This document shows, in pieces, positions 13,674-61,013 of a DNA stretch of 64,000 nucleotides. The stretch's first letter is position 1. Each line of letters starts with the position of its first letter. The notes under the pieces are model-generated. The model was not told the DNA's origin. It did not search any database and saw nothing but the letters and a program-made list of their open reading frames with translations. A program made the position numbers and the translations under genes. Source of the DNA: Squalus acanthias (lineage: Eukaryota). Location of the stretch: the NCBI GenBank assembly GCA_030390025.1, contig CM059432.1:9052001-9116000 (forward strand), read 5' to 3'.

Positions 13674-13821
13674 TGTATGCAAAGTGTGGAATGTGTGTGT
13701 GTGTTTGATGAAAGGGCCATAGGTGTTGCATGAGTGTTGTGCATTGGGGTTTTAAGACCCTCTGGCCATAGAGTGAGGTTGAGATGGAGGGATGGAGAGG
13801 TATTGAGAAAAAGCCACTCAC

Positions 13822-14058: not shown

Positions 14059-14415
14059 GCTTGGCAGCAAAATGGATTACAGGTCTCTCCAGGCTGAGAT
14101 TCAAGGCTGCAATGAGCAGGGTGTGGCTGGGGAGCAAGTGGCCCCCCCCGCTTTAAGAAGTGTCCGGCGCCAGTGTGTCTGTGTTCCCTCGCTAACTGGC
14201 AGCAGCTGTGCTGCGCTCGTGCGCTGAGGTAGCGCCTCACTCCTAGGCCTTTGCGCCTTAAGAGAGGTGTGCAGCGCCTAATTTAGCGCTCCACTCACCT
14301 CCCGGGGCGGTAAAAGTGAAGTTTCCTGTCAGTGCCGATAATTAGCGCCAGGCGCTAATATTTGCGCGCGGACGATATTTGCGCCCCAAATGGGGCGCGA
14401 CCTAATTTCTACCCC

Positions 14416-29563: not shown

Positions 29564-30369
29564 GGAAAAAGAATAGCATGAAAAGTCATGCATGAGAGTG
29601 AATTCTGATACCCTAAGCTCTGGAATTCCCTGCCTAAACCTCTCCACCTCTCTACCTCTCTCTCCTCCTTTAAGACGCTCCTTAAAACCTCCCTCTTTGA
29701 CCAAGCTTTTGGTCACCAGTCCTAATATCTCCTTATGTGGCTCGGTGTCAAATTCTGTTTGATAACGCTCCTGTGAAGCACCTTGGGGCGTTTTACTATG
29801 TTAAAGGCGCTATATGAATGCAAGTTGTTGTTGTTGAGAGCTGTTTAGAGTGCTGGAGGCTGGGAAACATTGGTTTAAATCACGTAAGATGGCTAATTGC
29901 TTCCATTTGTTTGGCTGTAATGTTTCTGAGACCGATGCAAACTGTAAGTCTATTGTTCATGGCCTCTTCACTGCTGCTCAAGGTCAGCTTGAGAAATGAA
30001 TCAACTATTATGTGTATTGACAATTGAGGCTAAAGAGATATTTCAAAACTGTAGAAATTTTTTGAGATTTGGAAATGAAGAGCGACTTGGGTTAAAAAAA
30101 AAATCATGAGGCGCGATGAACAACATGTTCCGGAGCACTTCAAAGCGATCTGTTCACGGCAATAATCTGATGATCAGAGAAGAAAGGCTCCAGCACCAGT
30201 GAGTGGGTGGCGTATCCGGTGAGCCAGAGACTGGGAGATAGGTGAGAACTGGGAGATGATAACTTAACACATATTGTTGTAACTTGCAAACTCTGGGGGT
30301 GGGGGTGGGGGTGGTGGGGTAATACTTAGAACTAAATTAGATTTAATATGATACACGTTTTAATTCGGC

Positions 30370-39669: not shown

Positions 39670-40610
39670 CCCCTCCAGCCCTGCAACCCTCCGAGATCTC
39701 TGCGCTCCTCCCATTCTGCCCTCTTGCGCATCTCTGATTTCTATCGCTCCACCATTGGCGGCCGTGCCCTCAGCTAGCTAGGCCCTAAGCTCTGGAATTC
39801 CCTCCCTAAACCTCACCGCCTCTCTACCTCTCTCTCCTCCTTTAAAACGCTCCTTAAAACCTACCTTTTTGATCAAGCTTTAGGTCACCTGTCCTAATAT
39901 CTCCTTATGGGGCTCGGTGTCAAATTGTGTTTGATAATCACACATGTGAAGCACCTTGGGTCATTTTACTACGTTAAAGGCGCTATATAAATGCAAGTTG
40001 TTGTTGCTAATTTATTTGCCTTGCGCCCATTTGGCCTTTATAGGACCTCCATTTCCTTCTAACTAGCTTCTGAGTGTCTCCTGACGACAGCGTGGCTGAG
40101 ATCAGGGTATTGGACCCACATCACACCAGTTCCCGATGGTGCACTGATCTACTGTGCTGCCATGGTCAGTTGTGGCTCAGTGGGTAGCACTCTCACCACC
40201 TAGAGTCTGAAGGTTGTGGGTTCTAGTCCCACTCCACGAGACTTGACTGCAAACATCTAGGCTGACACTCCAGTGCAGTGCTGAGGAATTGCTGCACTGT
40301 CGGAGGTGCCGTCTTTCGGATGAGACGTTAAACCGAGGCCCCGTCTGCTCCCTCAGAGTGGACGTAAAAGGGTCCCATGGCCACTATTTCGAAGAAGAGC
40401 AGGAGAGTTCTCCATGGAGCCCTGGCCACTATTTATCACTAAAACAGATTATCCAGTCATTATCGCATTGCTGTTTGTGGGAGCTTGCTGTGCGCAACTT
40501 GGCTGCTGCGTTTCCCACATTACAACAGTGACTCCACTTCAAAAGTACTTAATTGGCTGTAAAGCGCTTTAGGACGTCATGAAAGCCGCGCGATAAATGC
40601 GTGTCTTTCA
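39670..40610 (+). mobile_element. L2 3' fragment (39670-40005) and Deu-SINE (40165-40610)
   Basis: Same diagnostic sequences as the other copies. Confidence 0.8.
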
Positions 40611-40944
40611 TTTACCAGGCTGGCTCATAAAACTAGATTTTGAAAAAAACATTTTTTAGACATAATTAATATTGTAGAATCTGTAAACATTAACAGCTGC
40701 TGACATGGGCGCATAGAGCAAATGGGATTTGTAAAAGAAATAGCTGCCCGCTTTGCACATAAAATCGCATTTATAATAATTAATAACTGATTTTACTTTG
40801 CACATAATATAAATGGCATTCATACAAAAACTCACTGTCACAGTAGGCCGAGCAAAATAAATAATTAAAATTATATTGACTGCGCTGTTGGCCGATATAT
40901 AAAGTGCTACTTTCCTGCTTCCTGCTCCATAGACCACACGCTTC

Positions 40945-41614
40945 GGCCCTGATTTTAACCTTCTGCGTCCAGCATAAACGGGGGCGCAGGGTGGAGTTAT
41001 GATGCCCACTGGCCTGATCCTCACTGGCCTCGTTCCGCACCCAATTTTAACAGGCGCACTCTGGCCGGCCTGCGAGGGCCTTGCGCTAAGCAGGCGAGGG
41101 CCACGTCGCCGTACAGACGTCAGGGTCCGATGGCGTCATTCGGACCCCGACTCGATTTTAACCGCTGCCAGCCTCGCCAGGAGCACCGGGCGCAAAGGGG
41201 CGGCAGGCTCAGACCAGGTTAAGTTACATTTATTTTTTTAAACGTTTTTCTTGTGGGCCGGGAGGAGCAGGAGTGCTTTTTCTTCCGGACCCCACATGGA
41301 AAACCAAGGGCCCCAGGCTTTCCCCCTCCCCCGAGCGCGATTGCCTACCCCTCCCCCACCACCCCCCCCCCCCCCCGACCACTTACCGGACGTCCAGGAT
41401 CCGCCACCGCAAGTCCTCGACCACAACCTCCTGACACGGACGCCTCGGTCCCGCCCGTCAGCCCGTCGCCGGGTTCGGGCGGGAGTCGGGCCTGGCCTAG
41501 TTAAATAAAGGCCGGGAGTTAAAATAGCCTGGGCCTCATGTCAGCGAGAGGGGGTGAGCTTGCTGCTCGCCCCACGCTCTCCCCCTCAACCCCACCCCCA
41601 GTTAAAAGCGGGGC
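40945..41614. mobile_element. GC-rich MITE, third family
   Basis: Imperfect TIRs GGCCCTGATTTTAAC / GTTAAAAGCGGGGC; internal ATTTTAAC and GTTAAAAT motifs. Confidence 0.6.
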
Positions 41615-42354
41615 TTTCGTTCAGCACAGCACTCTAATTGTTGCCCCTTGGGGACATGTGACTCCTGCTCAGGAGGCTGGTCGGGAGGAACAGCTGAAGG
41701 ATTTTTGGAAGTCTGCTCAGTGCTTTACGGCATCAGTTACAGCCTCAATACTTGATACACTGATCCCTCGCTGCCCATTTACTGCTGCCGCTTCTATCAT
41801 TATTATATACATCAAAATATCTTTTCTGCCCTATTTACAACAATTACATTGATTGGCGGATGTGCACATACCATTCAGCAAATTGGACGACAAAATATAA
41901 GGTGGCATTCGTCTTAAGAGCCACGTTGAGTGCGGGATGTCCTCACGTAAATTAATCCCCACCTTGCCCGAACTAATGATCGAACGAAGCTCCCAGGTTT
42001 ATTTTAGATGGGAGCTTTCTGTGCGCATTTTTCCCCGACCTCAGAAATGCCCCGTGATGTGAGGTTCGGCTTAGCTGATCTCTTGTCGTTTCCCTGGTGA
42101 GGCCCAATCGATTCATGCGCATCAATCGGGTGGATCCAATCGGAAGATTCAGGCTCAAATCGCAGGTTCTCACTGTTTTACTGCAAATAGTTTACGTGTT
42201 GTGCTAAAATGCAGCTTTTAAAATGTTTCTATTTTTAAAGGAACTTAATGGGGCGTGGCTGGGTGTCCTCTGTTGCGACTGTTTATTTTCCTGAAGGCAA
42301 TTTGCAATCACTGTTTCGTGATAAAGAGGAGGTTCCCTGCTGTGAGTGTATTCA

Positions 42355-42865
42355 AGAAAGAAAGACTTGCATTTATATAGCGCCTTTTTATGGCCTCAGG
42401 CCGTCCCAAAGCGCTTTACAGCCAATGAAGTACTTTTTGAAGTGTAGTCACTGTTGTAATGTAGGGAAACGCGGCAGCTAATTGGCTCACAGCAAGGTCC
42501 CACAAACAACAATGTGATAAATGACCAGACAACCTCGTTTCAGTGATGGTTGATGGATAAATATTGGCCAGGACACCGGGGAGAACTCCCCCTGCTCTTC
42601 TTCAAAATAGTGGCCGTGGGATCTTTTACAGCTACTTGAGAGGGCAGACGGGGCCTCGGTTTAACATCTCATCCAAAAGACGGCACCTCCGACAATGCAG
42701 CACTCCCTCAGTACCGCACTGGAGTGTCAGCATGGATTAACTGGCTTTATAAAGAAGGAAAGGCGTGCATTTATATAGCGCCGTTTACGACCTCCGGCCA
42801 TCCCAAAGCACGTTACAGCCAATGAAGTACTTTTGAAGTGTAGTCGCTGTTGTAATGTAGGAAAG
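42355..42865 (-). mobile_element. Deu-domain SINE copies
   Basis: Reverse-complement Deu core and duplicated tail. Confidence 0.8.
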
Positions 42866-43296
42866 TGCTGTTATCTGAGTAAGTGTTGTCGCAGGTTTGG
42901 GGTTGGTGTTGTAACAAGTTTTACTTAAAGCAAATGATACTGAGAATCCCATATTTAGTGCATTCCCATTGCCAAACTAATAGTCAAACAAAGTTCTTGC
43001 ATTTTTTAGATGAGAGTTTTTTGTGCGAATTTTCCCTATCCTCAGAAATGCCTTGTGATGTGAGGTTTGGGTTAACTGATCTTTCATGGGCCTTTACGCC
43101 AGGCGATGTTATTTATTTATTTAGCCCCGAGCTCCATTATTGGCACCAGGGGTTTTGCTGACATATCTGGAGGAAAAGGGGACCAAGAGAAGGATGCCAG
43201 GCAGGTCAGGCTGCCCGCAACTGCACCCCAACATCATCCGCAGAGAGAGGTAACATACCTTGATGCCTTCAAGAGAGTGTTGGACCAGTTCTTTTT

Positions 43297-43790
43297 TTAA
43301 ATTCGTTCATGGGATGTGGGCGTCGCTGGCAAGGCCAGCATTTATTGCCCATCCCTAATTTCCCCTCCAGAAGATGGTGGTGAGCCACCTTCTTGAACCT
43401 CTGCAGTCCTTGTGGTGAAGGTATTCCCTCAGTGCTGAGTTTTTCGTAGCGGTTTTGTTACAACTGAGTGACTTGCTCGGCCATTTCAGAGGGCAGTTAA
43501 GAGTCAACCACATTGCTGTGGGTCTGGAGTCACATATAGGCCAGGCCGGGTAAGGATGGCAGATTTCCTTCCCTAAAGGACATTAGTGAACCAGATAGGT
43601 TTTTACGACAATCTGATAGTTTCATGAATCACCATTACTGATACTAGCTTTTTAAAAAATTCCAGATTTATTTAATTAAATTAAAATTCCCCAGCTGCCA
43701 TGGTGGAATTTGAACTCACGTCTCAACTGGATTATTAGTCCAGGCCTCTGGAGCACTAGTCCAGTAACATAACCACTATGCTACCGCACC
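43297..43790 (-). mobile_element. tRNA-headed SINE with LINE-derived 3' tail
   Basis: Head GGTAGCATAGTGGTTATG...GAGTTCAAATTCC; tail shared with the LINE family of 983-1644. Confidence 0.75.
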
Positions 43791-43999
43791 CCTAGGGCAG
43801 AGATTGCATCATAGAAATTTATGACACAGAAGGAGTGTTTCTGCCTCTTCCACCCTTTCAGGCAGTGAGTTCCAGACCCCCACCACCCTCTGGGTGAAAA
43901 GATTTCTCCTCAACTCCCCTCTAATCCTTCTACCAATTACTGTAAAAAACATGAGAAGTCGCACAACACCAGGTTATAGTCCAACAGCTTTATTTGAAA

Positions 44000-44037
44000 T
44001 CACAAGCTTTCGGAGCGGCTGCTCCTTCGTCAGGTGA
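44000..44037 (-). ncRNA. Minimal hammerhead ribozyme of a second Penelope-type family
   Basis: tcac-CTGACGA-aGGAGCagccGCTCC-GAAA-GCTT-gtga. Confidence 0.75.
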
Positions 44038-44530
44038 AGTGAAGAAATACAAACGGGCACAGCATATATAGACAGAGAACAATGCCTGTGCAGAGAACAA
44101 TGCCAGATGACTACAGTTAATCTTTCTAACTGCCCTTTATCAAAAAACATAGAATAGAAGGTAAGTGTCTTTATACATAACATTTGGTCCATGTGATCTC
44201 CTGGAATAGTTTTGATCATCTGAGGAGTTTGCAGAGGAAACTTCCAGAAATTTTTTTTCCTTATTGGCCCTGGGTTTTTTCTGTTTTTTGTTTGCCTCAC
44301 CCAGGTGGGGGCGAGGGACATGGGAGGGAAGAAGTGTCGAGTCATGATGCTCTGTGACATCACCTGTTGCCGCGTGGCCCTTGATTGGCCTGCTAAGCCC
44401 GCTGGGCAGGCTCAGCAAGGTCAATCAAGTGAAAATACAGTGGGTTGGCCACAAGTCGATGGAGGCGGGACTACAACCCAAAAAGTGGGAGTCCCGCCTC
44501 CATCCCATCCCCAGTATCAAAATCCAGCCC

Positions 44531-44849
44531 TATGTTTCGACTTACAATTTCCCTGGACCGATCACCCAGAGATAAAGGAGTATGTATGAAAGTCAGACAG
44601 AAGCTTAGATGTTGTTAAAGAGGTACTTTTATGTACATATGAATTGTTAAGGGGGGTACTTTTACGTACATTTGAATTAATAAGATAATTCTTTGAATCT
44701 ATTGCCAAAAGTGCTTCTATTCTGTGCACCCTCGAATTTTGAACTATAGTGTGAATAAAGACCAATTTTATTGATCACATCCTTGTCTGTCATTGTTAAG
44801 CTAATTTGTAATTCTCGAGGTCCGAACATTAGTAAGAGAAAGACTTACA
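44531..44849 (+). repeat. 5' LTR, upstream ~455 bp missing
   Basis: Aligns to 54369-54708 at about 95% plus a ~21-bp indel; ends CTTACA; AATAAA at 44754. Confidence 0.92.
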
Positions 44850-44854
44850 TAAAT

Positions 44855-44872
44855 TGGCGACCACGAAGGGAC
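44855..44872 (+). other. Primer-binding site, tRNA-Arg
   Basis: TGGCGACCACGAAGGGAC, 5 nt after the LTR end; complementary to the 3' end of vertebrate tRNA-Arg(TCG) as I recall it. Confidence 0.85.
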
Positions 44873-44900
44873 CTTGAGGGGGGAAAGCATTTTTATAACA

Positions 44901-47900
44901 ATGCCGGACAAGAAAGTGAGAAGTATGGAGGATTTGGTAGCAAAATATATTAGTTCAAAATTTGATACAGATAAACAATGGGTTAGAGATATTGTGCAGA
45001 ACGATGACCCTGTACAAAAAGCAAAGGAATGGACGGAAGGTCTGTTTGGAAAGGTGCCATGGTATAAAGCGATATGGCTGTTAGCCTATCAAAGACAATT
45101 AGTTCAAAATAAGAAAGAGATTGAGCAACTGAAACAAAAGGCGAGCGACAGGGAAGCGGTGGTGAACCATTTGCTAAAAGATTTAGAGGAATTAAAAGAA
45201 CAGAGACAAGCTGAGAAAGTGAAAGGGGAAAGTAACATAGAATACTTGCAGTGTCGGGTGACGGAGTATTGGCGAAGAGCTGATGAATGGGAGAAAGAAA
45301 GCCATAAGCAACAGCGGCAGGCAGCCTCGGCTGAGGAAGAGTTAAGCAATGTAAAAACAGCATCTAAGGTGTTGCAGCAACAGAAAGCAGGAGAAGCTGA
45401 TCACACTAAATGCTGAAAGAAAATTGAGTGATTGAAAGCTCGTCTATCGGTAGAGAAGGGCATAATATGCTTAATGACCCCAGAGGAAGGGGATATCGAG
45501 GGGGAAGGAAAGTGGTCTGATGATGGGCCACAATACGGGGAATTGAGACCCCCGCCAGAAGTACCAGAACCCCCGGTCCCACCGCCAATGAATCCTATGA
45601 GGCAGCAGAAATTTGGTCCCCCTGCAGGAGCACAGAATAGAGGGGTGTTACAGAGTGATTTTACCAGACCGTATAACATAAGAACATAAGAAATAGGAGG
45701 AGTCGGCCATTCGGCCCTTCGAGCCTGCTCCGCCATTCAATGAGATCATGGCTGATCTTCTGCCTCAATTCCATTCACCGGCCCTATCGCCATATCCCTT
45801 GATGCCTTTACTAGTCAGAAATCTATTGACTTCTGTTTTGAATATACCCAATGACTGAGCCTCCACAGCCCTCTGGGGTAGAGAATTCCAAAGATTCACC
45901 ATACTCTGTATGAAGAAATTTCTTCTCATCTCTGTCCTGAATGGCCTACCCTTTATCCTGAGGCTGTGGCCTCTGGTTCTAGACTCCCCAGCCAAGGGAA
46001 ACATTCTCCCAGCATCCACCCTAGCAAGCCCTGTAATAATTTTGTATGCTTCAATGAGATCCCCTCTCATTCTTCTGAATTCAAGAGAATACAGGCCTAG
46101 TTTAATCAATCTCTTCTCATACGACAGTCCCGCCATCCCAGGAATCAATCTCGTGAACCTTTGTTGCACTCCCTCTATGGCAAGTATATCCTTCCTTAAG
46201 TAAGGAGACCAAAATTGTACACAGTACTCCAGGTGTGGTCTCACCAAGGCCCTATATAATTGGAGTAAGACCTCTTTACTCCTGTACTCAAATCCTCTTG
46301 TAATGAAGGCCAGCATACCATTTGCCTTCCGAATGGCTTGCTGCACCTGCACATTCACTTTCAGTGACTCATGTACAAGGATACCCAGGTCCCTTTGAGC
46401 ATCTGCATTCCCAATTCTTTCACCATTTAGGAAATACTCTGCCTTTCTGTTTTTTCTACCAAAGTGGATAACTTCACATTTATCCACATTATATTCCATC
46501 TGCCATGTTCTCGCCCACTCACTGAGCCTGTCGAGATCCCCTTGAAGCCTCTTCACATCCTCTTCACAACTGACACTGCCACCTAGCTTTGTATCATCAG
46601 CAAATTTGGAAATGTTACATTTAGTCCCCTCATCCAAATCATTGATATAGATTGTGAATAGCTGGGGTCCAAGCACCGATCCTTGCGGTACCCCACTAGT
46701 CACAGCCTGCCAACCTGAAAAAGACCCGTTTATCCCAACTCTTTGTTTTCTGTTTGTTAACCAATTCTCAAGCCATGCTAGTATATTACCCCCAATTCCA
46801 TGTGCCCTAATTTTGTTCACCACCTCTTGTGTGGGACCTTATCGAAGACCTTCTGAAAATCCAAATACACCACATCTACCGGTTCCCCTTTGTCTACTCC
46901 ACTAGTTACATCCTCAAAGAACTCCAATAGGTTTGTCAAACAGGACTTCCCTTTCATAAATCCATGTTGACTTTGCCCAATCTTACTATTAGTTTCTAAG
47001 TGCCCAGTTATTGCATCCTTTATAATAGATTCCAGCATTTTTACAACTACTGATGTGAGGCTAACAGGTCTGTAGTTCCCCGTTTTCTCTCTCCCTCCTT
47101 TCTTAAATAGCAGGGTTACATTTGCTATCCTCCAATCTGCAGGAACTGTTCTAGAATCTATAGAATTTTGGAAGATGACAACCAATGCGTCCACTATCCC
47201 AATGGCCACCTCTTTCAAAACCCTAGGATGTAGGTCATCTGGTCCTTGAGATTTATCGACTTTTAGTCCCATTAATTTTGCTAGTACTATTTTTTTACTA
47301 ATAATAATTCCTTTAAGTTCCTCATTCTCACCACACCCTTGGTTTTCTCGTATTTCTGGGAGGTTTTTTGTGTCTTCCGCCATGAAGACAGAAACAAAGT
47401 ATTTATTTAATTTCTCGGCCATTTCTTCATTCCCCATTATAAATTCTCCCGTCTCTGACTGTAAAGGACCTACATTTACCTTCACCACTCTTTTCCTTTT
47501 CACATACTTTTACAATCCGTTTTTATATTTTTCACTAGTTTGTGCTCATATTCTATTTTCCCTTTCTTTATCAACTTCCTGGTCCCCCTTTGCTGATTTC
47601 TGAAAAGATCCCAATCCTCAGGCTGACCGCTTTTTCTGGCAACTTTATAAGCTTCCTCCTTTGACTTAATACTAGTTTTAATTTATTTTGTTAGCCATAG
47701 TTGGATCACTTTTCCTTTTGGGTTTTTATGCCCTAGAGGAATATATGTTTGTTGCAAATTATGCATTATTTCCTTGAATGTTAGCCATTGTATGTCCACC
47801 TTCATACCTTTTAGTGTAGTCTCCCAATCTACCATGCCCAACTTGTCCCTCATACCCTTGTAGTTTCCTCTGTTTAGATTGAAGACCTTCGTTTCAGATT

Positions 47901-50900
47901 GGACTACATCATTCTCAAACTTAATATAAAATTCAATCATATTATGGTCACTTGTCCCTAAAGGCCCCTTTACCACAAGATTATTGATTAGCTCTTTCTC
48001 ATTACACTGTACCAGATCCAGAATAGCCTGTTCCCTGGTTGGTTCCTCCACATACTGATCCAGGAAACCATCTTGCATGCATTCCAAGAATTCGTCCTCC
48101 ACACCATTAGTGATAATTTGATTTGCCCAGTCAATATGTAGATTAAAGTCCCCCATGATTACCGTATTGCCCTTGCTACATGCACTTCTCATCTCTTGAT
48201 TGATACTGTGCCGTACATTACCACTACTGATTGGTGGCCTATACACAACTCCCACCAATGTTTTCCGCCCTTTGCTGTTTCTTAGCTCCACCCAAACTGA
48301 TTCCAGTTCTACATCATGATCTGCCAAGCCAAGATCTTTTATCTCTACCGTACCGATCTCATCCCTTATTAACAGCGCTACGCCACCTCCTTTTCCTTTT
48401 TGTCTGTCCTTCCTAAATGTTGAGTACCCTGGAACATTCAGTTCCCAGCTTTGGTTACCCTGCAACCATGTCTCTGTAATGGCAATTGCATCATACCCAT
48501 TTACTTCTATTAGTGCCATTAATTCATCCACCTTGTTGGGAATGCTACGTGCATTTAGATGAAGTGCCTTCAACTTTGCCTGTTTAATATTTTTCCGCAC
48601 TTTGACCCTCTTTACTGTTGGCCTTTGTTTCTGCTCCCTACTAGTTTTGCTGACTACTTTTCTAACTTTCACTTCCAGCTTTGTTTCTCTCTGTTCTGGG
48701 CCCACACTTAGGTTCCCAGCCCCCTGACAAACTAGTTTAAATCCTTCCCAACAGCACTAGCAAACCCCCCTGCAAGGATATTGGTCCCAGTTCTGCCGAG
48801 GTGTAACCCGTCCAGCTTGTACAGGTCCCACCTTCCCTAGAATTGATCTCAATGCCTCAGGAACGTAAATCCCTCCCTCCTACACCATCTCTCCAACCAT
48901 GCATTCATCTGGTCTATTCTCCTATTTCTGCTCTCGCTAGCATGTGACACTGGGAGTAATCCTGAGATTACCACCTTTGAGGTCCTGCTTTTTAATTTAT
49001 TTCCTAGCTCCCTATATTCTGCTTGCAGGACCTCGTCCCTCTTTCTACCTATGTCGTTGGTACTGATATGGACTACGACCTCTGGCTGTTCACCCTCCCC
49101 CTTCAGAATGTCCTGCAGCTGCTCAGTGACATCCTTGACCCTGGCACCAGGGAAGCAACATACCATCCTGGAGTCACGTCTGCAGCCACAGAAACATCTA
49201 TCTGTTCCCCTTACGATAGAATCCCCTATCACTATTGCTCTCCCACTCTTTTTCCTCCCCTCCTGTGCAGCTGAGCAACTCGTAGTGCCACGGACTTGGC
49301 TCTTGCTTCATTCCCCTGAGAAATCATCTCCCCTAGCAGTATCCAAAACGGAAAATCTGTTGGAGAGGGAGATGGACCCAGGGAACTCCTGCACTACCTT
49401 CCTAGTTCTTTTACTCTGTCTGGCAGTCACCCATTCCCTTTCTGCCTGTGTACACTTTACCTGTGGTGTGACCACCTCATTAAACGTGCTATCCACGAAG
49501 ATCTCAGCCTCATGGATGCTCCACAGTGACTCCAGCCGCAGCTCCAGCTCCGAAACGCGGATTTCGAGTAACTGCAGCTGGAGACACTTCCTGCACACAT
49601 ATTTGCCCTGGACACCGAAAGTGTCCCTGACTTCCCACATAGCACAGGAGGAGCACTCCATGCTGCCGAGCTGCCCTGCCATGTCCTACCCTTAATTTAC
49701 TCCCTTTACTTCCTCTAAATTAAAGAATATTAAATACACTGGGGACCTTACTTCACTTTACACACTACTTACTCTAAACTAGAGACCTTACTTTTACTTT
49801 AATGACTGGACTGTAGAAATACTCACCAGGTCCTACTTACCAATCAGCTCCTTCCCTGGTTGTGACGTCACTTTAGCGGTTTTGCAGTTGTTGTTGTTGT
49901 TTGACTGCCCCTGCTCTCGGACTCTTTCCTGGGTGTAAAGTAAGAACCAATTCCTACAGAGTGAAAAGTTAGGGAAAGCAAAGGCGAAGCAAGGGAGCTC
50001 CTCCTTCCACTCCTCACCCACCTAACTCCCTCACTCACCCAACTCTCTGCACTCTGTGCAAACCGCACTCAGTGTAGATCGCACTGCAAAGCCTGTTTTT
50101 ATAGGCCTAGTTTTCCTAATTAACTTCCTTCAGCTGCTCTGAATTATCCTCTGCCTTCTCCGGGGCTGCCGACTCCTTTCAGTGATCTTAGTGGTGTAAC
50201 ACGATGCAATTGAAAGAAATGGTGGGTGATTTAGGGAAACTAAAAATGGGAGATGACCCGACAATTATGTTTCAGGAAGTAGCAGCTGCGGCCTCGATAA
50301 ATGAGTGTGATGAATCAGAGCACATTAAGATGTTACTATTTACGCTGTCAATATTGGTCTAAAGTGGCTCACCAGCCAGCACAAAAAGGGGTGCAGGAAG
50401 TTAAAAACCAAATCACGATAGCATTAGGGTACGGATCAGGTAATCCATTCGAACAGGTGGGCAAAACTAAGCAAAGACCCGGGGAGAGTCCTGAAAGTTA
50501 TGCAGAAAGGTTGTGGCCAGTATATAACACGGCCTGTGGAGGGATACTTGTTAGAGCTAACCTTGCAGCAGGGCCCCTGAATCATTGGCTGTGAGCATTA
50601 ATCGCCAATAGCCTGCCAGATATTAGAGCAGTGACAGAAGCATGGTATGACCCGCAAGGCGACCAGGCTGAGGTACAGACCTTGCGGAAAATGACCTTAG
50701 AGAAAGACAGGAAGTAGAGGGGGGCCTAATTAAGTCAAGACAAAAGGATAAGGTGTGTGAGACAAGGGGATGGAAACAGGAAGGAGATTACCCCCCTACG
50801 GAGGATAAGTGATGCTTTAATTGTGGAGGAAAGGGACATTTTGTTAGAGACTGCAGAAGACCCAGGATAGATAGAAATGAAGAACCGATTACAGGGCCCA

Positions 50901-51037
50901 CTGCGCCTACAGAGCAGACAAAGGCAACCGTAACCGATCAGGCGGCGCTGGCCTTAGTGGAAGCCCTGAAACAACTAGGGGTCACTGGGAAGGTAGATGC
51001 TGCAAAAGGAAGCGATACACCACTAAGATCACAATGA
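44901..51037 (+). pseudogene. gag with stops and frameshifts, interrupted by CR1 45679-50193
   Basis: N-terminal coiled coil, Pro-rich linker, MHR-like KQRPGESPESYAERLW, CFNCGGKGHFVRDC at 50813-50854, PTAP at 50897-50908, stop at 51035-51037. Confidence 0.88.
45679..50193 (-). mobile_element. Full-length CR1 LINE (~4.5 kb), inactivated
   Basis: 5' UTR; ORF1 from 49682 (CxxC...CxxC, coiled coil, IGDSIVRG esterase); ORF2 APE-RT ending at 45765 (GVPQGSVLGP, FADDTK); TSD GTATAACA/GTGTAACA. Confidence 0.95.
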
Positions 51038-51592
51038 AGGGGCCGCGCCCAGCCCGAGTACCTGTGTCCCCTCAGGTACGACAATTGGGGACAACCACGT
51101 GTGAAAGTAGAAGTAGAACACACAAACAGGACGTGTCTGGTGTCTGGTGGAGCCTCAAACACCGTGATTCACTCGGAATGTCCTGATAGTTCCCCATGGT
51201 CGTCAGGAACACCATCCGTGTTAGCCGGTTTCACGGGCAACCAAAAGGCAGGGGCCGTATCACGACCTTTAAAAGTTAAGGTAGGGGGACTAGAATCGAA
51301 GTGGGAATGTGTTCTTATGAATTGGGATAAGGAAGGGCATGGGGTGCTAGGCTCTGATTGGATGATGGCCCACAATGTGATCGTGGACCGGCATAATGAT
51401 TGTTTGTGGGGTGCAGCAGAAGAGGATAAATCAGGGGAGGTGCGGATAATCCCAAAGGGAAATAAAGGGAACGGTTGGAGCTGCATGATGCAACCGCAAG
51501 TGAGATATGACTGGGAGAATAAGTTGTGGAGGCAATTTAGGAAAAGGAAAAAGAAGGGGAAAATTAAAGTTTTACCTACACGAAGCTATTAG
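51038..51592 (+). pseudogene. Retropepsin-like protease region, in frame after the gag TGA
   Basis: PRVKVEV...CLVSGGASNTVI at the DTGA position, GFTG flap-like motif, GVLGSDWM. Confidence 0.75.
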
Positions 51593-52623
51593 TTTCTGTC
51601 CAAAACAAGTAAAACACAAGGTTTGCTGAGTAAAAGGATCAGAAAAGAATGCTGGAATCTCAGTTTGTGTGAAAGTGTGTGTTAAAAGTGTGGTAGTTTT
51701 CTGTCTTTGAAAGAAAATGTCTGGTGTGTTTGTTTCAGCTCCACCCACTTTTTCTGTACTGAGACCTTGAACAAGCGTGTGCTGTTATAAGTTTCTCAAT
51801 TGTTTTGCAAAAGAAAAGCTTCATCCTTGAAGTTAATGTGCCTGGAAGAAAATTAATTTGAACATTTACAAAGCATGTGTGAATGTTTCTTTGTTGGTGT
51901 GGCTTCTTCCTTTGTTTTTCAAGTGATACTGCTTAATTGAAAAATTTTGGTTTGAATTGAATTGGAGTTATTGAGGTTAATTAACCTATTAAAACCAGAC
52001 TTTTATTGCAGCCACGGTGAAATTCTGGTTGGTGTAAATTTGTGTGGAAGCTACTAGTTCCGGATATGTGGCAAAAACACGGCAACAATTTTTGGAAATT
52101 TTTGACTAATTGCAAGTATGGATGACCAGGAAAAAAATGAAGAAAATTATTATTGTGTGGAGTTGCTTCACAGAATGTTCAGGATATCTCATGTTTTTTT
52201 TTTACCTGCTAAAGTGAATCGATCAGGATCTTAACAAAGATTTTAAAGGTACAAAGACTTTGCAAAAGTAAAGATTTACTTGAAAGCTGTGAGAAGTTGT
52301 GTGACCAAACCTGACAGTGTGATTGATGACTGTGTTTGTCTTCTTTTGAAATGCAAAAGAAAGAAGTTCACTCTTTTCACAAGCAGCTGTGAACTCTGTT
52401 CTCTTAACTCCACAAGCAGATGTGGGTTCTGTAAACATTTTGGGCATTGTTAAATTTTTAAGTTTTAAACTTGAGTGGATGTTTCCCCATATTGATAGAA
52501 GGGGGTCGGAAATTGACGAATTAACCCATTTGGCTCTTCGGAAAGCCGCAATGGATTGTCGGTTGTTTTCTTTTAAGCAGGGGGCCAGATGAGTGTTGAT
52601 GGTGCAAGATTACCAACTCCAGG

Positions 52624-53769
52624 ATGGGGGAACTCCTGTCCGCATTGAGCGCTTTGATGTTCGTAGTGGATGGGATTGAACTATTGAACTATATCAGGAA
52701 TCACAGCAGCTCGGAAACAGCACCAAATGGAACCATAACCTCACTGGATACAGGGTTTTCTGTTGTAAATGAGATGAATGTAACAATTAAAAATCAAACT
52801 ATAACATGTCATAATTGGATGGTGAGGGTAACAGAGCAGAGGGTGCATGAGGGGCAAAGGATTTGTTTAAAATGCTCAAATGAGATTACCCCAAGCGGGA
52901 CGATCCTAGAACTCCGGTTTGCACCGGGTGAGACTACAAATAACCTGAGATTGAAGAAGGCAAGAGGAATCGTAGCTACCCCGTTAATTGATGGGACAAG
53001 TTACTGTTGGACAAATTTCTGGTCAAGTAATCACACAGGAGTATATATATGTGTGTAAACAGAAATTTCTCCCATGATGATCCTCAAATTAAAAATCATT
53101 ATGATAATATTCAATGTCCTGATCAGTCCAAAGAAGCCATTCAATTAAAGGCGAAAGAGAAACCAGTGCCACCCAATGAAGGGAGTGAAGAGTGCCCCAC
53201 CCCATCCCCTGCTTCGATTAACGGATTGATGTTGGTTCCAAGTGAGTTGTCAATGTTACATGATGTTGTGTTAGATGCAAGGGAGGTTATTATCAATATG
53301 TCTGGTATCTAACAATACTATGTGTATTAAACCTAAAAGGATGGTAAAAATCGGGAATAGGACTATTCCGCCTTGATGGATCAGAATCCAATGCATGTTA
53401 AGGCATCAATTAAGATAGATGATTTGGGGAAATACGTGTCCATTTTTGGATATGGGTTACCTTGGATGAATGAAAATCTCACTGAGTTTGTGAAAGGGAT
53501 TGGAGAAGTGGGAAGGACAGTCTCAGTATTAAAAGGGCGGAATGATGCTAATGCCAGAATAATAACCTCGTTAATGAACGAGGCGACTTCTTGGTGGGAT
53601 TTGGGATTTAATCGTATAGACTTAGCTCCGTGGACTGTGCTCACAAGCTCTGTTATGGTTACAGCTAGTGTGTGTGATCGTGCTTATGTGGGAGTGGGGA
53701 ATGCGGGCAAGACGTAACCAAAGAGAGAACAAGGGAAGACAATTTAGGCGTACGAGGGGACTGTTCTAG
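52624..53769 (+). pseudogene. env-like type I membrane glycoprotein with Ig-like domain, frameshifted
   Basis: Acceptor TTTTCTTTTAAGCAG ending at 52580; hydrophobic N-terminus; many NxS/T sites; WWDLG then ALLWLQLVCVIVLMW TM and basic tail. Confidence 0.75.
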
Positions 53770-53913
53770 GATTCGTAGGAATAATGTGAAATGGGGTATA
53801 GATATTGTATTATAGGGGATAAAAGGGGATTATGTCCGATTGGACTACATACTGCTCCAACTCTGGTGTAATGTCTGCACATGAATAAACATGAGAGACA
53901 TTTAAGGGAGGAC

Positions 53914-54708
53914 TGTAAGATTCTGAAAAGTGTAATAAAACTGCTGCTACCGTGTGGAGATCGAAATTGCGAACGAATTGTAAGATGATAACGGACGGAT
54001 TTAAAATGTAGGAAATCAGCAGGTGGTCTTTGTCTGTGAAGAGACAAAATGGCAGAAGTCAGAAGGGGTTCCTTTGCCTGGTGGTCAGCATGTGTTCTTT
54101 GTTTGAAAGGCCACCTGGGCAAGCAGGGAGAACATGATTGACAAGGAAGTCCCACCCCCACACATCTCACAGGAATGTCTCATGCAGAAGGAACTCCAAT
54201 CAGGGAAGGTTTGGAGTGAAACTGACCTATCAGAGGAAGGCAAAGAGTAATTTACGATAGAAGGGGCCTTTTCACAGAAATAACCCAGGAGCGAGAGTTT
54301 TTCAAGGTCACAGAAGGAACACAGAAGACAGAGCAGGACGAAGAATGAGCTGAGAAAGCTGGCCAGTCTATATTTCGACTTACAATTTCCCTGGACCGAT
54401 CACCCAGAGATAAAGGAGTATGTATGAAAGCCAGACATAAGCTTAGATGTTGTTAAAGGGGTGCTTTTATGTACATTTGAATTGTTAAGGGGGCTACTTT
54501 TATGTACGTTTGAATTAATAAGTTGCAGGCATATTTATTGGCGAGAATTCTTTGAATCTATTGCCAAAGGTGCTTCTATTCTATGTACCCTCGAATTTCG
54601 AACTATAGTGTGAATAAAGACCAATTTTATTGATCACATCCTTGTCTGTCATTGTTGAGCTAATTCGTAATTCTCGAGGTCCGAACAATAGTAAGAGAAA
54701 GACTTACA
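53914..54708 (+). repeat. 3' LTR (795 bp)
   Basis: TGTAAG...CTTACA termini; purine tract AAGGGAGGA at 53904-53912; AATAAA at 54613. Confidence 0.88.
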
Positions 54709-54810
54709 CATTACATGAGGAGGCCAAGTGCTGGGCTGGTCCATCGCTTCCCACAGACTCATGCCTGCATGCACGGGTCTCGTTCCCTTAATCCTGGCCT
54801 GCCACTTCTT

Positions 54811-56715
54811 CATAAGAACATAAGAACATAAGAAATAGGAGCAGGAGTAGGCCAATTGGCCCCTCGAGTCTGCTCCGCCATTCAATAAGATCATGGCTGA
54901 TCTGATCCTAACCGCCAATCTACTATCACAGAACCATCTCCTGAACCTAACAGAATTGGACACATGAAATAGGAGCAGGATCAGGCTACACGGCCCCTGG
55001 GCCCGCTACGCTACCCACAGGGCTATGACCGATCCGAACCTAGACTCATGTCCAAATTCCTGCCCGCTCCCCGTAACCCTTAATTCCCTTTACTTCTAGG
55101 AAACTGTCTATTTTTGTTTTAAATTTATGTAATGATGCAGCTTCTACAGCTTTTTGGGGCAGCATATTCCATGGACCTACCACCCTCTGAGTGAAGTAGT
55201 TCCTTCTCATCTCAGTTTTGAAAGAGCAGCCCCTTATTCTAAGACTATGCCCCCTAGTTCTAGTTTCACCCATCATCGGGAACATCCTCCCCACATCCAC
55301 CCGATCCAACCCCTTCACAATCTTATATGTTTCAATAAGATCGCCTCTCATTCTTCTGAACTCCAATGAGTAGAGTCCCAATCTACCCAACCTCTCCTCA
55401 TATGTCCATCCCCTCATCCCCAGGATTAACCGAGTGAACCTTCTTTGTACTGTCTTTTCTTAAGTATGGACACCAAAACTGTATGCAGTATTCCAGGTGC
55501 GGTCTCACCAATACCTTGTATAACTGAAGCAATACCTCCCTATTTTTATATTCTATCCCCCTAGCAATGAAAGCCAACATTCCATTGGCCTTCTTAATCA
55601 CTTGCTGCACCTGCATACTAACCTTTTGAGTTTCATGCACCAGGACCCCCAGATCCCTTTGTACTTCAGTACTTTCAAGTTTCTTGCCATTAAGATAATA
55701 ACTTGCTCTACTATTTTTCCTGCCAAAGTGCATAACCTCACACTTTCCAGTATTGTATTCCATCTGCCAAATCTCTGCCCACCTACTTAGCCTGTCTATG
55801 TCCCCTTGCAGATTTTTTATGTCCTCCTCACTCACTACTTTCCCTCCCATCTTAGTATCATCTGCAAACTTTGATATGTTACACTCGGTCTCCTCCTCCA
55901 AATCGTTAATATAGATTGTAAAGAGTTGGGGACCCAGCACTGACCCCTGCAGAACACCATTAGTTACTGATTGCCAGTCTGAGAATGAACCATTTATCCC
56001 AACTCTCTGCCTTCTGTTAGATAGCCAATCCTCTATCCATGCCAGAATATTACCCCCAATCCCGTGATTTTTTATCTTAAGCAATAATCTTTTGTGTGGC
56101 ACCTTGTCAAATGCCTTTTGGAAGTCTAAATACACCACATCCACTGGTTCCCCTTTATCCACCCTGTATGTTACTTCCTCAAAGAACTCCAGCAAATTTG
56201 TCAAACATGACTTCCCCTTCATAAAACCATGCTGACTTTGTCCTATTAAATTATGATTATCCAAATGTCCCGTTACTGTCTCCTTAATAATGGACTCCAA
56301 AATTTTACCTACCACAGATGTTAGGCTAACCGGTCTATAGTTTCCAGCCTTCTGTCTACTGCCCTTTTTAAATAAGGGTGTTACATTAGCAGTTTTCCAG
56401 TCTGCCGGGATCTTTGCTGAGTCCAGGGAGTTTTGGAAAATTATTACCAATGCATCCACAATCCCTACCGCCACTTCCCTCAAGACCCTAGGATGTAAGC
56501 CATCAGGTCCAGGTGATTTATCCGCCTTGAGTCCCATTATTTTGCCGAGTACCACTTCCTTAGTGATTTTGATCGTGTTTAGCTCCTCCCCCCCTATAGC
56601 CCCCTGTTTGTCCAGTGTTGGGATATTCTTAGTGTCCTCTACTGTAAAGACTGATACAAAATATTCATTCAGTGTATTTGCCATCTCCATGTTTCCCACC
56701 ATTAATTTCCCGGTG
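54811..56715 (-). mobile_element. 5'-truncated CR1 with a 434-aa open RT segment
   Basis: ORFs 55398-56702 and 55046-55417; (CATAAGAA)3 tail. Confidence 0.93.
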
Positions 56716-58440: not shown

Positions 58441-58541
58441 CACCAAGGAGTGCTCCTCCTCGCTCCGCAAAACAACTTTCGGCTGCTTTTGGCCTGGCGA
58501 GACCTGACCGTCGCCTTAATCGCTATCCCCCCCGTGGCATA

Positions 58542-60703
58542 CATAAGAACATAAGAAATAGGACCAGGAGTAGGCCATTCAGCCCTTTGAGCCTGCTCCG
58601 CCATTCAATGAGATCATGGCTGATCTTCTGCCTCAACTCCATTCACCGGCCCTATCGTCATATCCCTTGATGCCCTTACTAGTCAGAAATCTATCGACTT
58701 CTGTTTTGAATATACCCAATGACTGAGCTTCCACAGCCCTCTGGGGTACATAATTCCAAAGATTCAACACCCTCTGTGTGAAGAAATCTCTTCTCATCTC
58801 AGTCCTGAATGGCCTACCCTTTATCCTGAGGCTGTGGCCCCTGGTTCTAGACTCCCCAGCCAAGGGAAACATTCTCCCAGCATCCACCCTATCAAGCCCT
58901 GTAATAATTTTGTATCCTTCAATGAAATCCCCTCTCATTCTTCTGAATTCAAGAGAATACAGGCCTAGTTTAATCAATCTCTTCTCATATGACAGTCCCG
59001 CCATCCCAGGAATCAATCTCTTGAACCTTCGTTGCGCTCCCTCTATGGCAAGTATATCCTTCCTTAGGTAAGGAGACCAAAATTGTACACAGTACTCCAG
59101 GTGTGGTCTCACCAAGGCCCTATATAATTGGAGTAAGACTTCTTTACTCCTGTACTCGAATCCACTTGTAATGAAGGCCAGCATACTATTTGCCTTCCTA
59201 ATGGCTTGCTGCACCTGCACATTCACTTTCAGTGACTCATGTACAAGGACACCCAGGTCCCTTTGAGCATCTGCATTCCCCAATCTTTCACCATTTAGGA
59301 AATACTCTGCCTTTCTGTTTTTTCTACCAAAGTGGATAACTTCACATTTATCCACATTATATTCCATCTGCCATGTTCTCGCCCACTCACTGAGCCTGTC
59401 GAGATCCCCTTGAAGCTCTTCACATCCTCTTCACAACTGACACTGCCACCTAGCTTTGTATCATCAGCAAATTTGGAAATGTTACATTTAGTCCCCTCAT
59501 CCAAATCATTGATATAGATTGTGAATAGCTGGGGCCCAAGCACCGATCCTTGTGCTACCCCATTAGTTACAGCCTGCCATCCTGAAAAAGACTCGGTATC
59601 CCTACTCTATGTTTTCTGTCTTTTAACCAATTCTCAATCCATGCTAGTATATTACCCCCAATTCCATGTGCCCTCATTTTGTTCACCAACCTCTTGTGTG
59701 GGACCTTATCGAAGGCCTTCTGAAAATCCAAATACACCACATCTACCGGTTCCCCTTTGTCTACACCACTAGTTACATCCTCAAAGAACTCCAATAGGTT
59801 TGTCAAACAGGATTTCCCTTTCATAAATCCATGTTGACTCTGCCCAATATTACTATTAGTTTCTAAGTGCCCAGTTATTGCATCCTTTATAATAGATTCC
59901 AGCATTTTCCCAACTTCTGATGTGAGGCTAACAGGTCTGTAGTTCCCCGTTTTCTCTCTCCCTCCTTTCTTAAATAGCGGGGTTACATTTGCTATCCTCT
60001 AATCTGCAGGAACCGTTCCAGAATCTATAGAATTTTGGAAGATGACAACCAATGCGTCCACTATCCCAATGGCCACCTCTTTCAAAACCCTAGAATGTGG
60101 GTCATCCGGTCCTTGGGATTTATCGATGTTTAGTCCCATTAATTTTGCTAGTACTGTTTTTTTACTAATAATAATTACTTTAAGTTCCTCATTCGCGCCA
60201 CACCCTTGGTTTTCTAGTATTTCTGGGAGGTTTTTTGTGCCTTCCTCCGTGAAGACAGAAACAAAGTATTTATTTAATTTCTCAGCCATTTCCTCATTCC
60301 CCATTATAAATTCTCCCGTCTTTGACTGTAAAGGACCTACATTTACCTTCGCCACTCTTTTCCTTTTCACATACCTATAGAAGCTTTTACAATCCGTTTT
60401 TATATTTTTCACTAGTTTGTGCTCATATTCTATTTTCCCTTTCTTTATCAATTTCTTGGTCCCCCTTTGCTGATTTCTAAAAAGATCCCAATCCTCAGGC
60501 TGACCGCTTTTTCTGGCAACTTTATAAGCTTCCTCCTTTGACTTAATACTCACTTTAATTTATTTTGTTCGCCATGGTTGGATCACTTTTCCTTTTGGAT
60601 TTTTATGCTCTAGATATGTTTGTTGCAAATTATGCATTATTTCCTGAATGTTAGCCATTGTATGTCCACCTTCATACCTTTTAGTGTAGTCTCCCAATCT
60701 ACC
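58542..60703 (-). mobile_element. 5'-truncated CR1, same subfamily as 45679-50193
   Basis: Colinear and highly similar to 45679-47835. Confidence 0.93.
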
Positions 60704-61013
60704 AATGGTTGGAAGTTATGCTACAGTTGTATAAAGCTCTGGTAAGACCCAATCTGGACACTGCGTTCATTTCTGGGCACCGCACCTCAGGAAGGATATA
60801 TTGGCCTTGGAGAGGGTGCAACGTAAATTCACCAGAATGATACTGAGGCTTAAAAGGTTAAATTATGAAGACTGGTTGCATAGACTAAGGCTAGTATTCC
60901 CTTGAGTATAGAAGGTTAAGGGGTGATCTAATTGAAGTGTTTAAGGAGTTAATGGGGTAGATAGAGAGAAACTATTTCCTCTGGGGGGGAGTCCAGAACA
61001 AAGGGGATGTAAC

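What the first reader, a model, noticed from the sequence alone, without database searches (positions are those of the whole stretch)
44531..54708. Pol-less, env-bearing LTR element: candidate non-autonomous satellite of a lokiretrovirus-like family
Seen: after the protease-like ORF, ~1 kb of T-rich DNA (51593-52570) shows no YxDD, RNase H or integrase motif, yet PBS, PPT, LTR ends, gag and the env-like gene remain. The leader is very short (28 nt from PBS to ATG) and gag begins with a long coiled coil. Inference: it would need a helper for RT/IN. The spacer looks like replacement sequence rather than a simple deletion junction, suggesting a lineage that replicated in this form.
Basis: partly seen in the sequence, partly recalled or inferred. 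Interest (0 to 1): 0.7.

Follow-up and report, generated by a model that had tools for sequence, protein, structure and literature searches.

The report
Helper-dependent snakehead-like endogenous retrovirus
This is a decayed copy of a multi-copy retrovirus-derived element that lost its copying enzymes and most of its envelope gene and so must have spread by borrowing a helper virus's machinery, a known kind of genomic parasite, here related to snakehead fish retrovirus rather than to lokiretroviruses.

Summary
The element is real and lacks RT, RNase H and integrase. The loss is not private to this copy: in contigs of three organisms the sequence just past the end of pol homology is carried at about the depth of the protease, and spacer and third ORF are covered throughout. 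So a non-autonomous family is likely (0.7); a helper was not found. Three corrections. (1) Affinity is the snakehead-retrovirus (SnRV) clade, not lokiretroviruses: coiled-coil Gag with a CCHC knuckle, in-frame stop before protease, and protease neighbours whose RT is SnRV-type. (2) The true LTR is 795 bp (53914-54708); the 5' LTR is a 320-bp remnant, so no target-site duplication can be read; a 4.5-kb CR1 splits gag. (3) The 'env' is about 378 codons with signal peptide, a probable Ig-like head and a membrane anchor, but no furin site or fusion peptide: not a fusogen. Whether the spacer is replacement sequence is unresolved. Central-swap, trans-complemented ERVs are known (bovine ERVK D-type, ETn, RecKoRV); this is a new member.

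The parts
44530..44849 (+). 5' LTR remnant (3' part of U3, R, U5); 5' 454 bp of the LTR missing
   Evidence: 320 aligned nt to 54368-54708, 12 transitions, 5 transversions, one 21-nt indel, K2P 0.055
44855..44872 (+). primer binding site, 5 nt behind the LTR end; tRNA-Arg(UCG) type (identity recalled, and noted in earlier finding e1-7806816; not tested against a tRNA here)
   Evidence: sequence; SnRV PBS also starts TGGCGA
44901..45678 (+). gag, N-terminal part with coiled coil; two in-frame stops
   Evidence: aligns to SnRV Gag 144-222, 1 of 300 shuffles as good
45679..50196 (-). near full-length CR1-type LINE inserted in gag (ORF1 with esterase, endonuclease, RT), possible 5-nt target duplication
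   Evidence: Pfam Lipase_GDSL_2, Exo_endo_phos, RVT_1; junctions; 95% copy at 58541-60704
50197..51037 (+). gag, capsid to nucleocapsid part, several frame breaks; CCHC knuckle near 50810-50860; ends in TGA in frame with pro
   Evidence: Pfam zf-CCHC 4e-6; major-homology-like and CCHC pieces align to SnRV Gag, 1 and 0 of 300 shuffles; first capsid piece not significant, 95 of 300
51038..51592 (+). protease ORF read in frame behind the gag stop; catalytic motif degenerate in this copy; pol homology ends at about 51470-51520, the last 25-40 codons are unrelated to Pol
51520..52580 (+). non-coding AT-rich spacer in place of RT/RH/IN; two short stretches (bins 51585-51739 and 51895-52049) are shared with far more abundant sequences; 14-nt palindrome at 51974-51987 (chance 183 of 2000); best splice-acceptor-like site at 52580
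52624..53760 (+). third ORF in env position, about 378 codons in at least four pieces in different frames: signal-peptide-like start, probable Ig-like domain (about 52800-53055), proline-rich stalk, short ectodomain remnant, membrane anchor near 53632-53690; no R-x-[KR]-R site, no fusion peptide
   Evidence: no homolog found
53904..53912 (+). polypurine tract
   Evidence: sequence directly before TGTAAG
53914..54708 (+). complete 3' LTR, 795 bp, TGTAAG...CTTACA, AATAAA at 54613
   Evidence: depth step at bin 53910 and 30 contigs leaving 54708 into unlike flanks, agreement 0.36

Best explanation
An old, now dead copy of a non-autonomous endogenous retrovirus family of the SnRV clade (clade Huo / class III-like). 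An ancestor lost pol from just behind the protease; about 1 kb of non-coding DNA stands in its place and ends in the splice acceptor of the env slot. The family kept what works in cis (LTR ends, PBS, PPT, probably packaging signals) and was copied by RT and integrase supplied in trans by a related autonomous virus, being packaged in the helper's particles or in mixed particles with its own Gag-PR (made by readthrough of the in-frame stop). Its env is most likely an internally deleted SnRV-type Env that kept the signal peptide, the Ig-like head, the stalk and the membrane anchor but not the fusion machine, so entry, if any, also came from the helper. After integration this copy took stops, frameshifts, a CR1 insertion in gag and a deletion of the 5' LTR's front part. 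Shown: anatomy, absence of pol, SnRV-like gag/pro, multi-variant coverage of pro, spacer and ORF3 in three organisms. Inferred: mobilisation in trans, readthrough, splicing, the Ig fold, the env-deletion origin of ORF3, the host class (cartilaginous fish).
For: No pol in spacer: Pfam 6 frames, tblastn of 11 protease hits and a 12-sequence Pol profile, SnRV Pol Smith-Waterman 96-240 of 300 shuffles as good in all 6 frames, combined profile. Family-wide: contigs of organisms A, B and D cover 30 of 30 bins; at 51540, past the end of pol homology, 9, 6 and 8 contigs give depth 215, 1143 and 108 against 135-214, 682-1141 and 134-214 at four protease places 51412-51470; in run X9 a contig has 88 letters on either side of 51540, i.e. 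reaches from protease into the T-rich spacer; 32, 21 and 16 contigs at spacer place 52490; 30 contigs leave the LTR end into unlike flanks. Eight organism codes hold 0.16-0.28 of the words (only A, B, D laid). SnRV clade; SnRV has an in-frame stop before pro (PMC13517186 passages). ORF3: 193 codons from Ig-like end to anchor against 888 in the SnRV env frame; no furin motif; Ig-type leads at 0.84-0.88, below the tool's reliable level; the SnRV env frame also starts with a weak V-set-like stretch (Pfam E 0.07).
Against: No whole genome was held, so no second full-length locus with the same junctions and other flanks was seen; no listed contig spans the element, and depth sums are not copy numbers (only 40 of 386 letter rows, 15 of 109 joints, 18 of 1422 loose ends and 24 of 9709 pieces were shown). 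In organism D the post-protease depth is only 0.5-0.8 of the protease depth. The unlike LTR flanks may come from solo LTRs or other families that share the LTR ends. No helper was found. The raw-read run X22 gave 0 reads. ORF3 pieces do not align significantly to SnRV Env (13-934 of 300-1000 shuffles as good); AlphaFold models were unusable (pLDDT 33 and 39). No listed contig formally bridges the presumed internal join of ORF3 and run X2 has no depth at 53358 and 53369.
Confidence: 0.7

Rival explanations
1. Simple deletion: the spacer is the native non-coding stretch before env of the autonomous parent, and pol was merely cut out; nothing foreign was put in. The family may still have spread in trans.
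For: The 3' half of the spacer has the depth of ORF3 and holds its splice acceptor; spacer and ORF3 are 1.5-4 times deeper than gag/pro in 3 of 3 covered runs, so other elements carry them behind something else. The spacer keeps the G-over-C skew of the sense strand.
Against: In SnRV pol and env overlap with no gap; two short spacer stretches are shared with sequences 10-60 times deeper than their neighbours, which looks like a patchwork from other repeats; no integrase tail is left.
Confidence: 0.35
2. The pol-less form amplified passively (segmental duplication, or one old insertion inherited by several species) and was never mobilised in trans.
For: Junction-bearing copies were never seen with their own flanks; the LTR pair is 5.5% diverged, old enough to predate several species.
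Against: Up to 32 distinct contigs at one spacer place and up to 26 in ORF3 within one run; LTR ends leave into many unlike flanks.
Confidence: 0.12
3. A lokiretrovirus derivative, as the first reader proposed (a Bhikhari-like element with more genes kept).
For: Coiled-coil Gag is reported for the loki-related Bik-1 (10.1101/2024.03.25.586437, passages); F-like env slot; non-autonomous loki families exist.
Against: Protease neighbours lead to an SnRV-type RT; gag and pro align to SnRV; CCHC knuckle present, absent from the loki Gag text seen; loki found in 0 of 3 chondrichthyan genomes. No direct comparison with loki proteins was run.
Confidence: 0.08
4. ORF3 is not a shortened env but a captured host immunoglobulin-superfamily membrane gene that replaced env, as nectin3 did in CrocERV31.
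For: Layout signal peptide - Ig-like - stalk - anchor; Atlas leads are eukaryotic V-set proteins; precedent in PMC4299795 (passages).
Against: No host homolog among candidates of 143-455 aa; SnRV's own env frame begins with an Ig-like stretch; earlier notes report full-length Ig-headed F-type Env in this genome (not checked here).
Confidence: 0.12
5. The spacer holds an inverted, heavily decayed RT piece (52129-51839, minus strand).
For: 7.2 bits against the frog Pol profile; 0 of 190 reported shuffles, 1 of 800 Markov controls and no other non-protease tile of 126 reached it.
Against: No match to SnRV Pol (240 of 300 shuffles as good), 0.3 bits with a mixed profile, no Pfam or PDB RT hit; catalytic motifs absent; strand skew not inverted.
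Confidence: 0.1

Closest known systems
Snakehead retrovirus (SnRV) and its ERV clade (clade Huo, PMC6001957; CmiERV lineage I of elephant shark, PMC4422223)
   Same: Coiled-coil Gag with one CCHC knuckle, in-frame stop before protease, protease and linker similarity, PBS starting TGGCGA, env slot behind a splice acceptor, Ig-like stretch at the env start (weak in both).
   Different: No RT/RH/IN; TGA instead of TAG; 28-nt leader without SnRV's signal-peptide exon; third ORF about a third of the SnRV env frame and not significantly alignable; no accessory ORFs seen.
Trans-complemented central-swap ERVs: bovine ERVK[2-1-LTR] D-type, mouse ETn/MusD, koala RecKoRV (PMC10924933, passages)
   Same: LTRs and gag- and env-side flanks kept, centre replaced by poorly alignable sequence, many copies, no own RT/IN.
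   Different: Other retroviral clade and host; helper not identified; origin of the spacer unknown; protease ORF retained.
Bhikhari (Bik-1, Bik-2) non-autonomous lokiretrovirus relatives of zebrafish (10.1101/2024.03.25.586437, passages)
   Same: Pol-less LTR family with a coiled-coil Gag.
   Different: Bik has gag only, with a glycine-rich end; this element has CCHC, protease and a third ORF, and points to SnRV.
Lokiretroviruses (PMC7947760)
   Same: Aquatic-vertebrate LTR element with env slot; coiled-coil-like Gag start.
   Different: Loki Env is about 500-560 aa with RxKR and fusion peptide and no Ig head; loki RT motif differs from that of this protease's neighbours.
CrocERV31 (ERV4) with nectin3 in place of env (PMC4299795, passages)
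   Same: Ig-type membrane ORF in the env slot.
   Different: CrocERV31 ORF is a recognisable host gene; ERV4 lacks the Gag zinc finger; no host homolog found here.

Membership tests
Lokiretroviruses | RT groups as sister to all other retroviruses | not testable with these tools
   The element has no RT and no helper was found.
Lokiretroviruses | Proxy: Pol linked to the nearest proteases is loki-type | tested here: not met
   P0005 RT 105 of 208 identical to SnRV, SnRV-type motifs; loki rows read PFGYAN, 18 occurrences. One full Pol among 5 hits.
Lokiretroviruses | Env with RxKR site, fusion peptide, coiled coil, F-glycoprotein likeness | tested here: not met
   No R-x-[KR]-R in three ORF3 pieces, no fusion-peptide-like window, no Pfam or PDB F hit; may be due to deletion.
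Lokiretroviruses | Tether plus RNase H, CGIN1-like integrase | not testable with these tools
   Domains absent from the element.
SnRV clade (clade Huo) | RT groups with SnRV | not testable with these tools
   No RT; only the protease proxy.
SnRV clade (clade Huo) | Gag with N-terminal coiled coil and one CCHC knuckle, colinear with SnRV Gag | tested here: met
   3 of 4 gag pieces align in order, 0-1 of 300 shuffles as good; Pfam zf-CCHC in both. Coiled-coil and CCHC matches are generic features.
SnRV clade (clade Huo) | gag stop in frame with pro (readthrough layout) | tested here: met
   TGA 51035-51037 in frame; SnRV TAG (PMC13517186). Shared with gamma- and epsilonretroviruses; no stable downstream fold (z -0.15).
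SnRV clade (clade Huo) | Protease similarity | tested here: met
   0 of 300 shuffles; only locus hit among 106 loci, E 4e-4.
SnRV clade (clade Huo) | Env homologous to SnRV Env | tested here: inconclusive
   Best local alignments partly colinear but none significant.
ERV4 (Chong et al. 2014) | No zinc finger in Gag | tested here: not met
   CCHC present; feature from Table 1 of PMC4299795.
Non-autonomous, trans-complemented ERV | Lacks RT and integrase | tested here: met
Non-autonomous, trans-complemented ERV | Keeps cis signals (PBS, PPT, LTR ends) | tested here: met
   PBS, PPT, both ends of the 3' LTR and the U5 end of the 5' LTR; the outer 5' end is lost in this copy.
Non-autonomous, trans-complemented ERV | Same internal junctions in many copies | tested here: met
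   Indirect: place 51540 and spacer places in 3 of 4 runs laid.
Non-autonomous, trans-complemented ERV | Junction-bearing copies at different sites with target duplications | not testable with these tools
   No genome; contigs too short.
Non-autonomous, trans-complemented ERV | Autonomous helper sharing LTR ends and PBS | tested here: inconclusive
   None fetched; loose ends at 51034 and 51081 and LTR joints show diverged sister families of unknown gene content.
Immunoglobulin-like domain (ORF3 N-part) | Ig fold with two cysteines about 55-75 residues apart and a G-x-Y-x-C strand | tested here: inconclusive
   Recalled, post hoc pattern matches, 0 of 100000 shuffles; Atlas 0.84-0.88; no Pfam hit; models unusable.

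The most novel reading that the evidence does not exclude
A helper-dependent SnRV-clade family, shared by several related host species, that was selected to keep Gag-PR and a fusion-less mini-Env (Ig-like receptor-binding head on a membrane anchor). Such a protein could act as a receptor decoy against the helper's kin or as an attachment module on helper particles, and the spacer would be a packaging signal moved from the leader to the pol slot, which would explain the 28-nt leader.
Probability: 0.15. Interest if true: 0.7.

Novelty: new member of a known kind. Interest (0 to 1): 0.38.

Why it matters
It extends the central-swap, trans-complemented type of ERV, described from cattle, mouse and koala, to a deep retroviral clade and probably to cartilaginous fishes, and such families are invisible to RT-based screens. 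If the short third ORF proves to be family-wide and under purifying selection, it would be a natural split of the Ig-like head from the F-type fusion machine and a direct handle on what that head binds. As it stands, this copy is dead and the type is known; earlier notes of this scan already describe other pol-less families and Ig-headed envelopes in this genome.

Tried and rejected
Whole-genome search: no genome held. Homolog searches with ORF3 C-part (400-2000 aa), gag N-part (456-2000 aa) and ORF3 N-part (143-455 aa): 0 hits; length-limited, weak evidence. Atlas with ORF3 C-part: no usable hit. PDB sequence searches of ORF3 pieces: nothing under E 0.3. AlphaFold single-sequence models pLDDT 33 and 39; the fold search on the second gave best Z 4.2, meaningless. 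Viral and metagenome contig scans with protease, gag N-part, frog Pol and PBS: no relative (L001 shares only the 18-mer and gave no hit); of 106 loci only L003 (SnRV by length 10,688 and RT text) held a retroviral Pol. No RNA holder listed. X22 raw reads: 0 laid, no test. No tRNA gene in the window. Rfam 40000-56000: 2 sub-threshold matches, a GP_knot2 match inside the protease, not at the stop; taken as chance. Readthrough structure behind the gag stop no more stable than shuffles (79 of 200). 14-nt palindrome in the spacer not beyond chance (183 of 2000). Antisense RT-like signal: kept as a minor rival only. My first reading of P0005 as loki-like (dual RNase H, 'NYNRIN-like' name) was dropped: both traits fit other retroviruses and the RT motifs are SnRV-type. 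I recalled gag-env pol-less ERVs from monotremes; passages of PMC10152393 did not show it, so it is not cited. Earlier-finding look-ups by sequence: 0 look-alikes in 3 of 3. Literature searches for a loki element in sharks and for an Ig-headed SnRV-type Env listed nothing to the point; the library lacks most subscription papers and Repbase, and bioRxiv supplements were closed.
Full report
Setting. The window is repeat-rich animal DNA: several CR1-type LINE pieces, a Harbinger-type transposon and a 3.6-kb simple repeat. No whole genome was held, so copy evidence comes from one lay of public contigs. That the host is a cartilaginous fish is taken from earlier AI notes on the same genome and from my recall of the CR1 tail; I did not test it.

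Anatomy. The 5' repeat 44530-44849 aligns only with 54368-54708: 320 aligned nt, 12 transitions, 5 transversions, one 21-nt indel, K2P 0.055. There is no purine tract at 54368, but there is one at 53904-53912, followed by TGTAAG, the exact inverse of the CTTACA that ends both repeats; and contig depth rises about tenfold at the 53910 bin in 3 of 3 covered runs. The LTR is therefore 795 bp, and the 5' LTR has lost its first 454 bp, which are nowhere else in the window. No target duplication can be read. With the rate assumed in PMC4422223 (2.2e-10 per site and year, which its author calls uncertain) the LTR distance gives about 125 million years; with the mammalian rate quoted there, about 13. 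The PBS lies at 44855-44872, 28 nt before the ATG. Gag is split by a near full-length CR1 on the minus strand (45679-50196) and has stops and frame breaks on both sides. It ends in TGA in frame with the protease ORF, whose catalytic motif is degenerate in this copy.

Absence of pol. Protease homology is firm to about 51470-51484 and loose to about 51520. Behind it, six-frame scans found no Pfam pol family, no YxDD-, RNase H- or integrase-like motif, nothing on the plus strand with a profile of 12 frog Pol proteins and nothing with SnRV Pol (96-240 of 300 shuffles as good). One result goes against a clean negative: a minus-strand stretch (52129-51839) scored 7.2 bits on the frog RT, reached by 0 of 190 reported shuffles and 1 of 800 Markov controls. 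It is not repeated by SnRV Pol, a mixed profile (0.3 bits), Pfam or PDB, and the spacer keeps the sense-strand G-over-C skew; I give it 0.1.

Is the pol-less form a family? Twenty of 24 listed runs hold part of 50200-54708, eight organism codes at 0.16-0.28 of the words. I laid 4 runs on 50190-54812 at 80% likeness; three contig sets (organisms A, B, D) cover 30 of 30 bins, the raw-read run gave nothing. At 51540, past the end of pol homology, 9, 6 and 8 contigs give depth 215, 1143 and 108; four protease places at 51412-51470 give 135-214, 682-1141 and 134-214. So in A and B about all, in D half to four fifths, of the sequence like this protease runs on as in the window rather than into RT. 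One X9 contig has 88 letters on either side of 51540 and so reaches from protease into the T-rich spacer. Spacer place 52490 is in 32, 21 and 16 contigs. Thirty X9 contigs leave the LTR end into unlike flanks (agreement 0.36). Limits: the tool warns that summed depth is no copy number; no listed piece spans the element; only 40 of 386 letter rows, 15 of 109 joints, 18 of 1422 loose ends and 24 of 9709 pieces were shown; the flanks may belong to solo LTRs or sister families.

The spacer. Its 3' half has the depth of the third ORF and ends in the best splice-acceptor-like site of the region (52580). Spacer and third ORF are 1.5-4 times deeper than gag/pro, so other elements carry them behind other sequence. 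Two short stretches (bins 51585-51739 and 51895-52049) match far more abundant sequences. This fits a patchwork from other retroelements, or conserved cis signals such as a packaging signal, which a 28-nt leader has little room for (inference). It fits equally a native non-coding stretch left by a plain deletion, although SnRV itself has overlapping pol and env. Unresolved.

Affinity. A search of 1.84 billion representatives with the protease gave 5 hits: an unnamed JGI piece (47%), coelacanth, an unnamed Logan piece, sea turtles and a full frog Pol. That Pol's RT carries the motifs of the SnRV row in the supplement of PMC7947760, while loki rows read PFGYAN. A motif scan fetched a 10,688-nt record, L003, whose length (PMC12193657) and RT text identify it as SnRV; the frog RT core is 105 of 208 identical to it. 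Three of four gag pieces and the protease align to SnRV in order (0-1 of 300 shuffles; the first capsid piece does not, 95 of 300). Both have one CCHC knuckle and an in-frame stop before pro. Loki Gag text seen in the supplement shows no CCHC (4 records, seen in part), and loki was found in 0 of 3 chondrichthyan genomes, while SnRV-like ERVs are known from elephant shark (PMC4422223). No quantitative comparison with loki proteins and no RT tree were possible. I reached the SnRV reading before seeing that earlier notes agree.

The third ORF. About 378 codons from ATG 52624, in at least four pieces. It has a hydrophobic start, 8 N-glycosylation sequons in three pieces, a proline-rich stretch and a hydrophobic anchor, but no R-x-[KR]-R site and no fusion-peptide-like window. 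Its N-part drew Ig V-set-type leads at 0.84-0.88, under the tool's reliable level, and fits a recalled, post hoc Ig pattern (0 of 100000 shuffles); Pfam, PDB, homolog searches and AlphaFold gave nothing. The SnRV env frame also opens with a weak V-set-like stretch (E 0.07). From Ig-like end to anchor there are 193 codons here and 888 in SnRV; loki Envs in the supplement are about 500-560 aa with cleavage site and fusion peptide. Earlier notes describe a 2352-nt Env with Ig head, stalk and F-like core in this genome (unchecked); that suggested the reading that ORF3 is such an Env with its centre deleted, the join lying near 53310-53375. Direct alignments to SnRV Env were partly colinear but not significant. 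Depth runs on across that region in B and D (15 and 11 contigs at 53358), but no listed contig bridges it by the tool's 31-letter rule and run X2 has no depth at 53358 and 53369. I put a family-wide short form at about 0.6.

Mechanism. Shown: cis signals kept, enzymes gone, many variants in three organisms. Inferred: the RNA was packaged, reverse transcribed and integrated by a sister virus, as for bovine ERVK D-type, ETn and RecKoRV, which share exactly this swap of the centre with gag- and env-side flanks kept (PMC10924933). Loose ends at 51034 and 51081 and LTR joints show diverged sister families sharing the gag-stop segment and the LTR ends; they are candidate helpers of unknown gene content. 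The element could not have supplied a fusogen.

Papers seen: PMC7947760 (parts 1-2 of 4 and supplement passages); PMC4422223 (part 1 of 2); passages only of 10.1101/2024.03.25.586437, PMC12440569, PMC11089739, PMC10152393, PMC8672886, PMC4299795, PMC13517186, 10.1101/2024.03.17.585361, PMC12193657, PMC10924933, PMC6001957. Supplements of the bioRxiv papers were closed and could hold relevant family lists.

Verdict. Observation partly confirmed; interpretation partly supported. New member of a known kind; interest 0.38.

Noticed in passing
L003 about 6230-6430: The SnRV env frame begins with an Ig-like stretch (two cysteines, a tryptophan between; Pfam V-set E 0.07). If real, the Ig head noted on shark-type Envs is also on the exogenous virus.
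   Followed up: partly
window 51035-51076: The 42 nt starting at the gag stop are tandemly repeated in contigs of runs X5 (7 contigs) and X9 (5 contigs) and make a depth peak in all three covered runs.
   Followed up: no
window 51895-52049: Deepest bin of the whole element, deeper than the LTR; 6 X5 contigs leave at 52045 into other sequence that holds an ATG, possibly the leader of another family.
   Followed up: partly
window 54233-54610: Contigs share both LTR ends but differ in the middle (joints skipping about 370 nt in X5; 19 loose ends at 54242 in X9): LTR subfamilies or recombinants.
   Followed up: no
window 45679-50196: Near full-length CR1 with esterase-bearing ORF1; a 95% identical partial copy at 58541-60704.
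   Followed up: partly
window 10641-14076: Harbinger-type transposon: 410-codon open DDE transposase (Pfam 6e-38) and an opposite-strand Myb/SANT ORF.
   Followed up: no
window 25962-29564: 3.6-kb GTGA-type simple repeat array, stop-free over more than 1200 codons on the minus strand.
   Followed up: no
window 44220-44529: GC-richer sequence that abuts the truncated 5' LTR, with a CCAG shared with the 3' LTR at the break; no copy elsewhere in the window.
   Followed up: no
window 54450-54516: 33-bp tandem duplication inside the LTR, present in both LTR copies.
   Followed up: no
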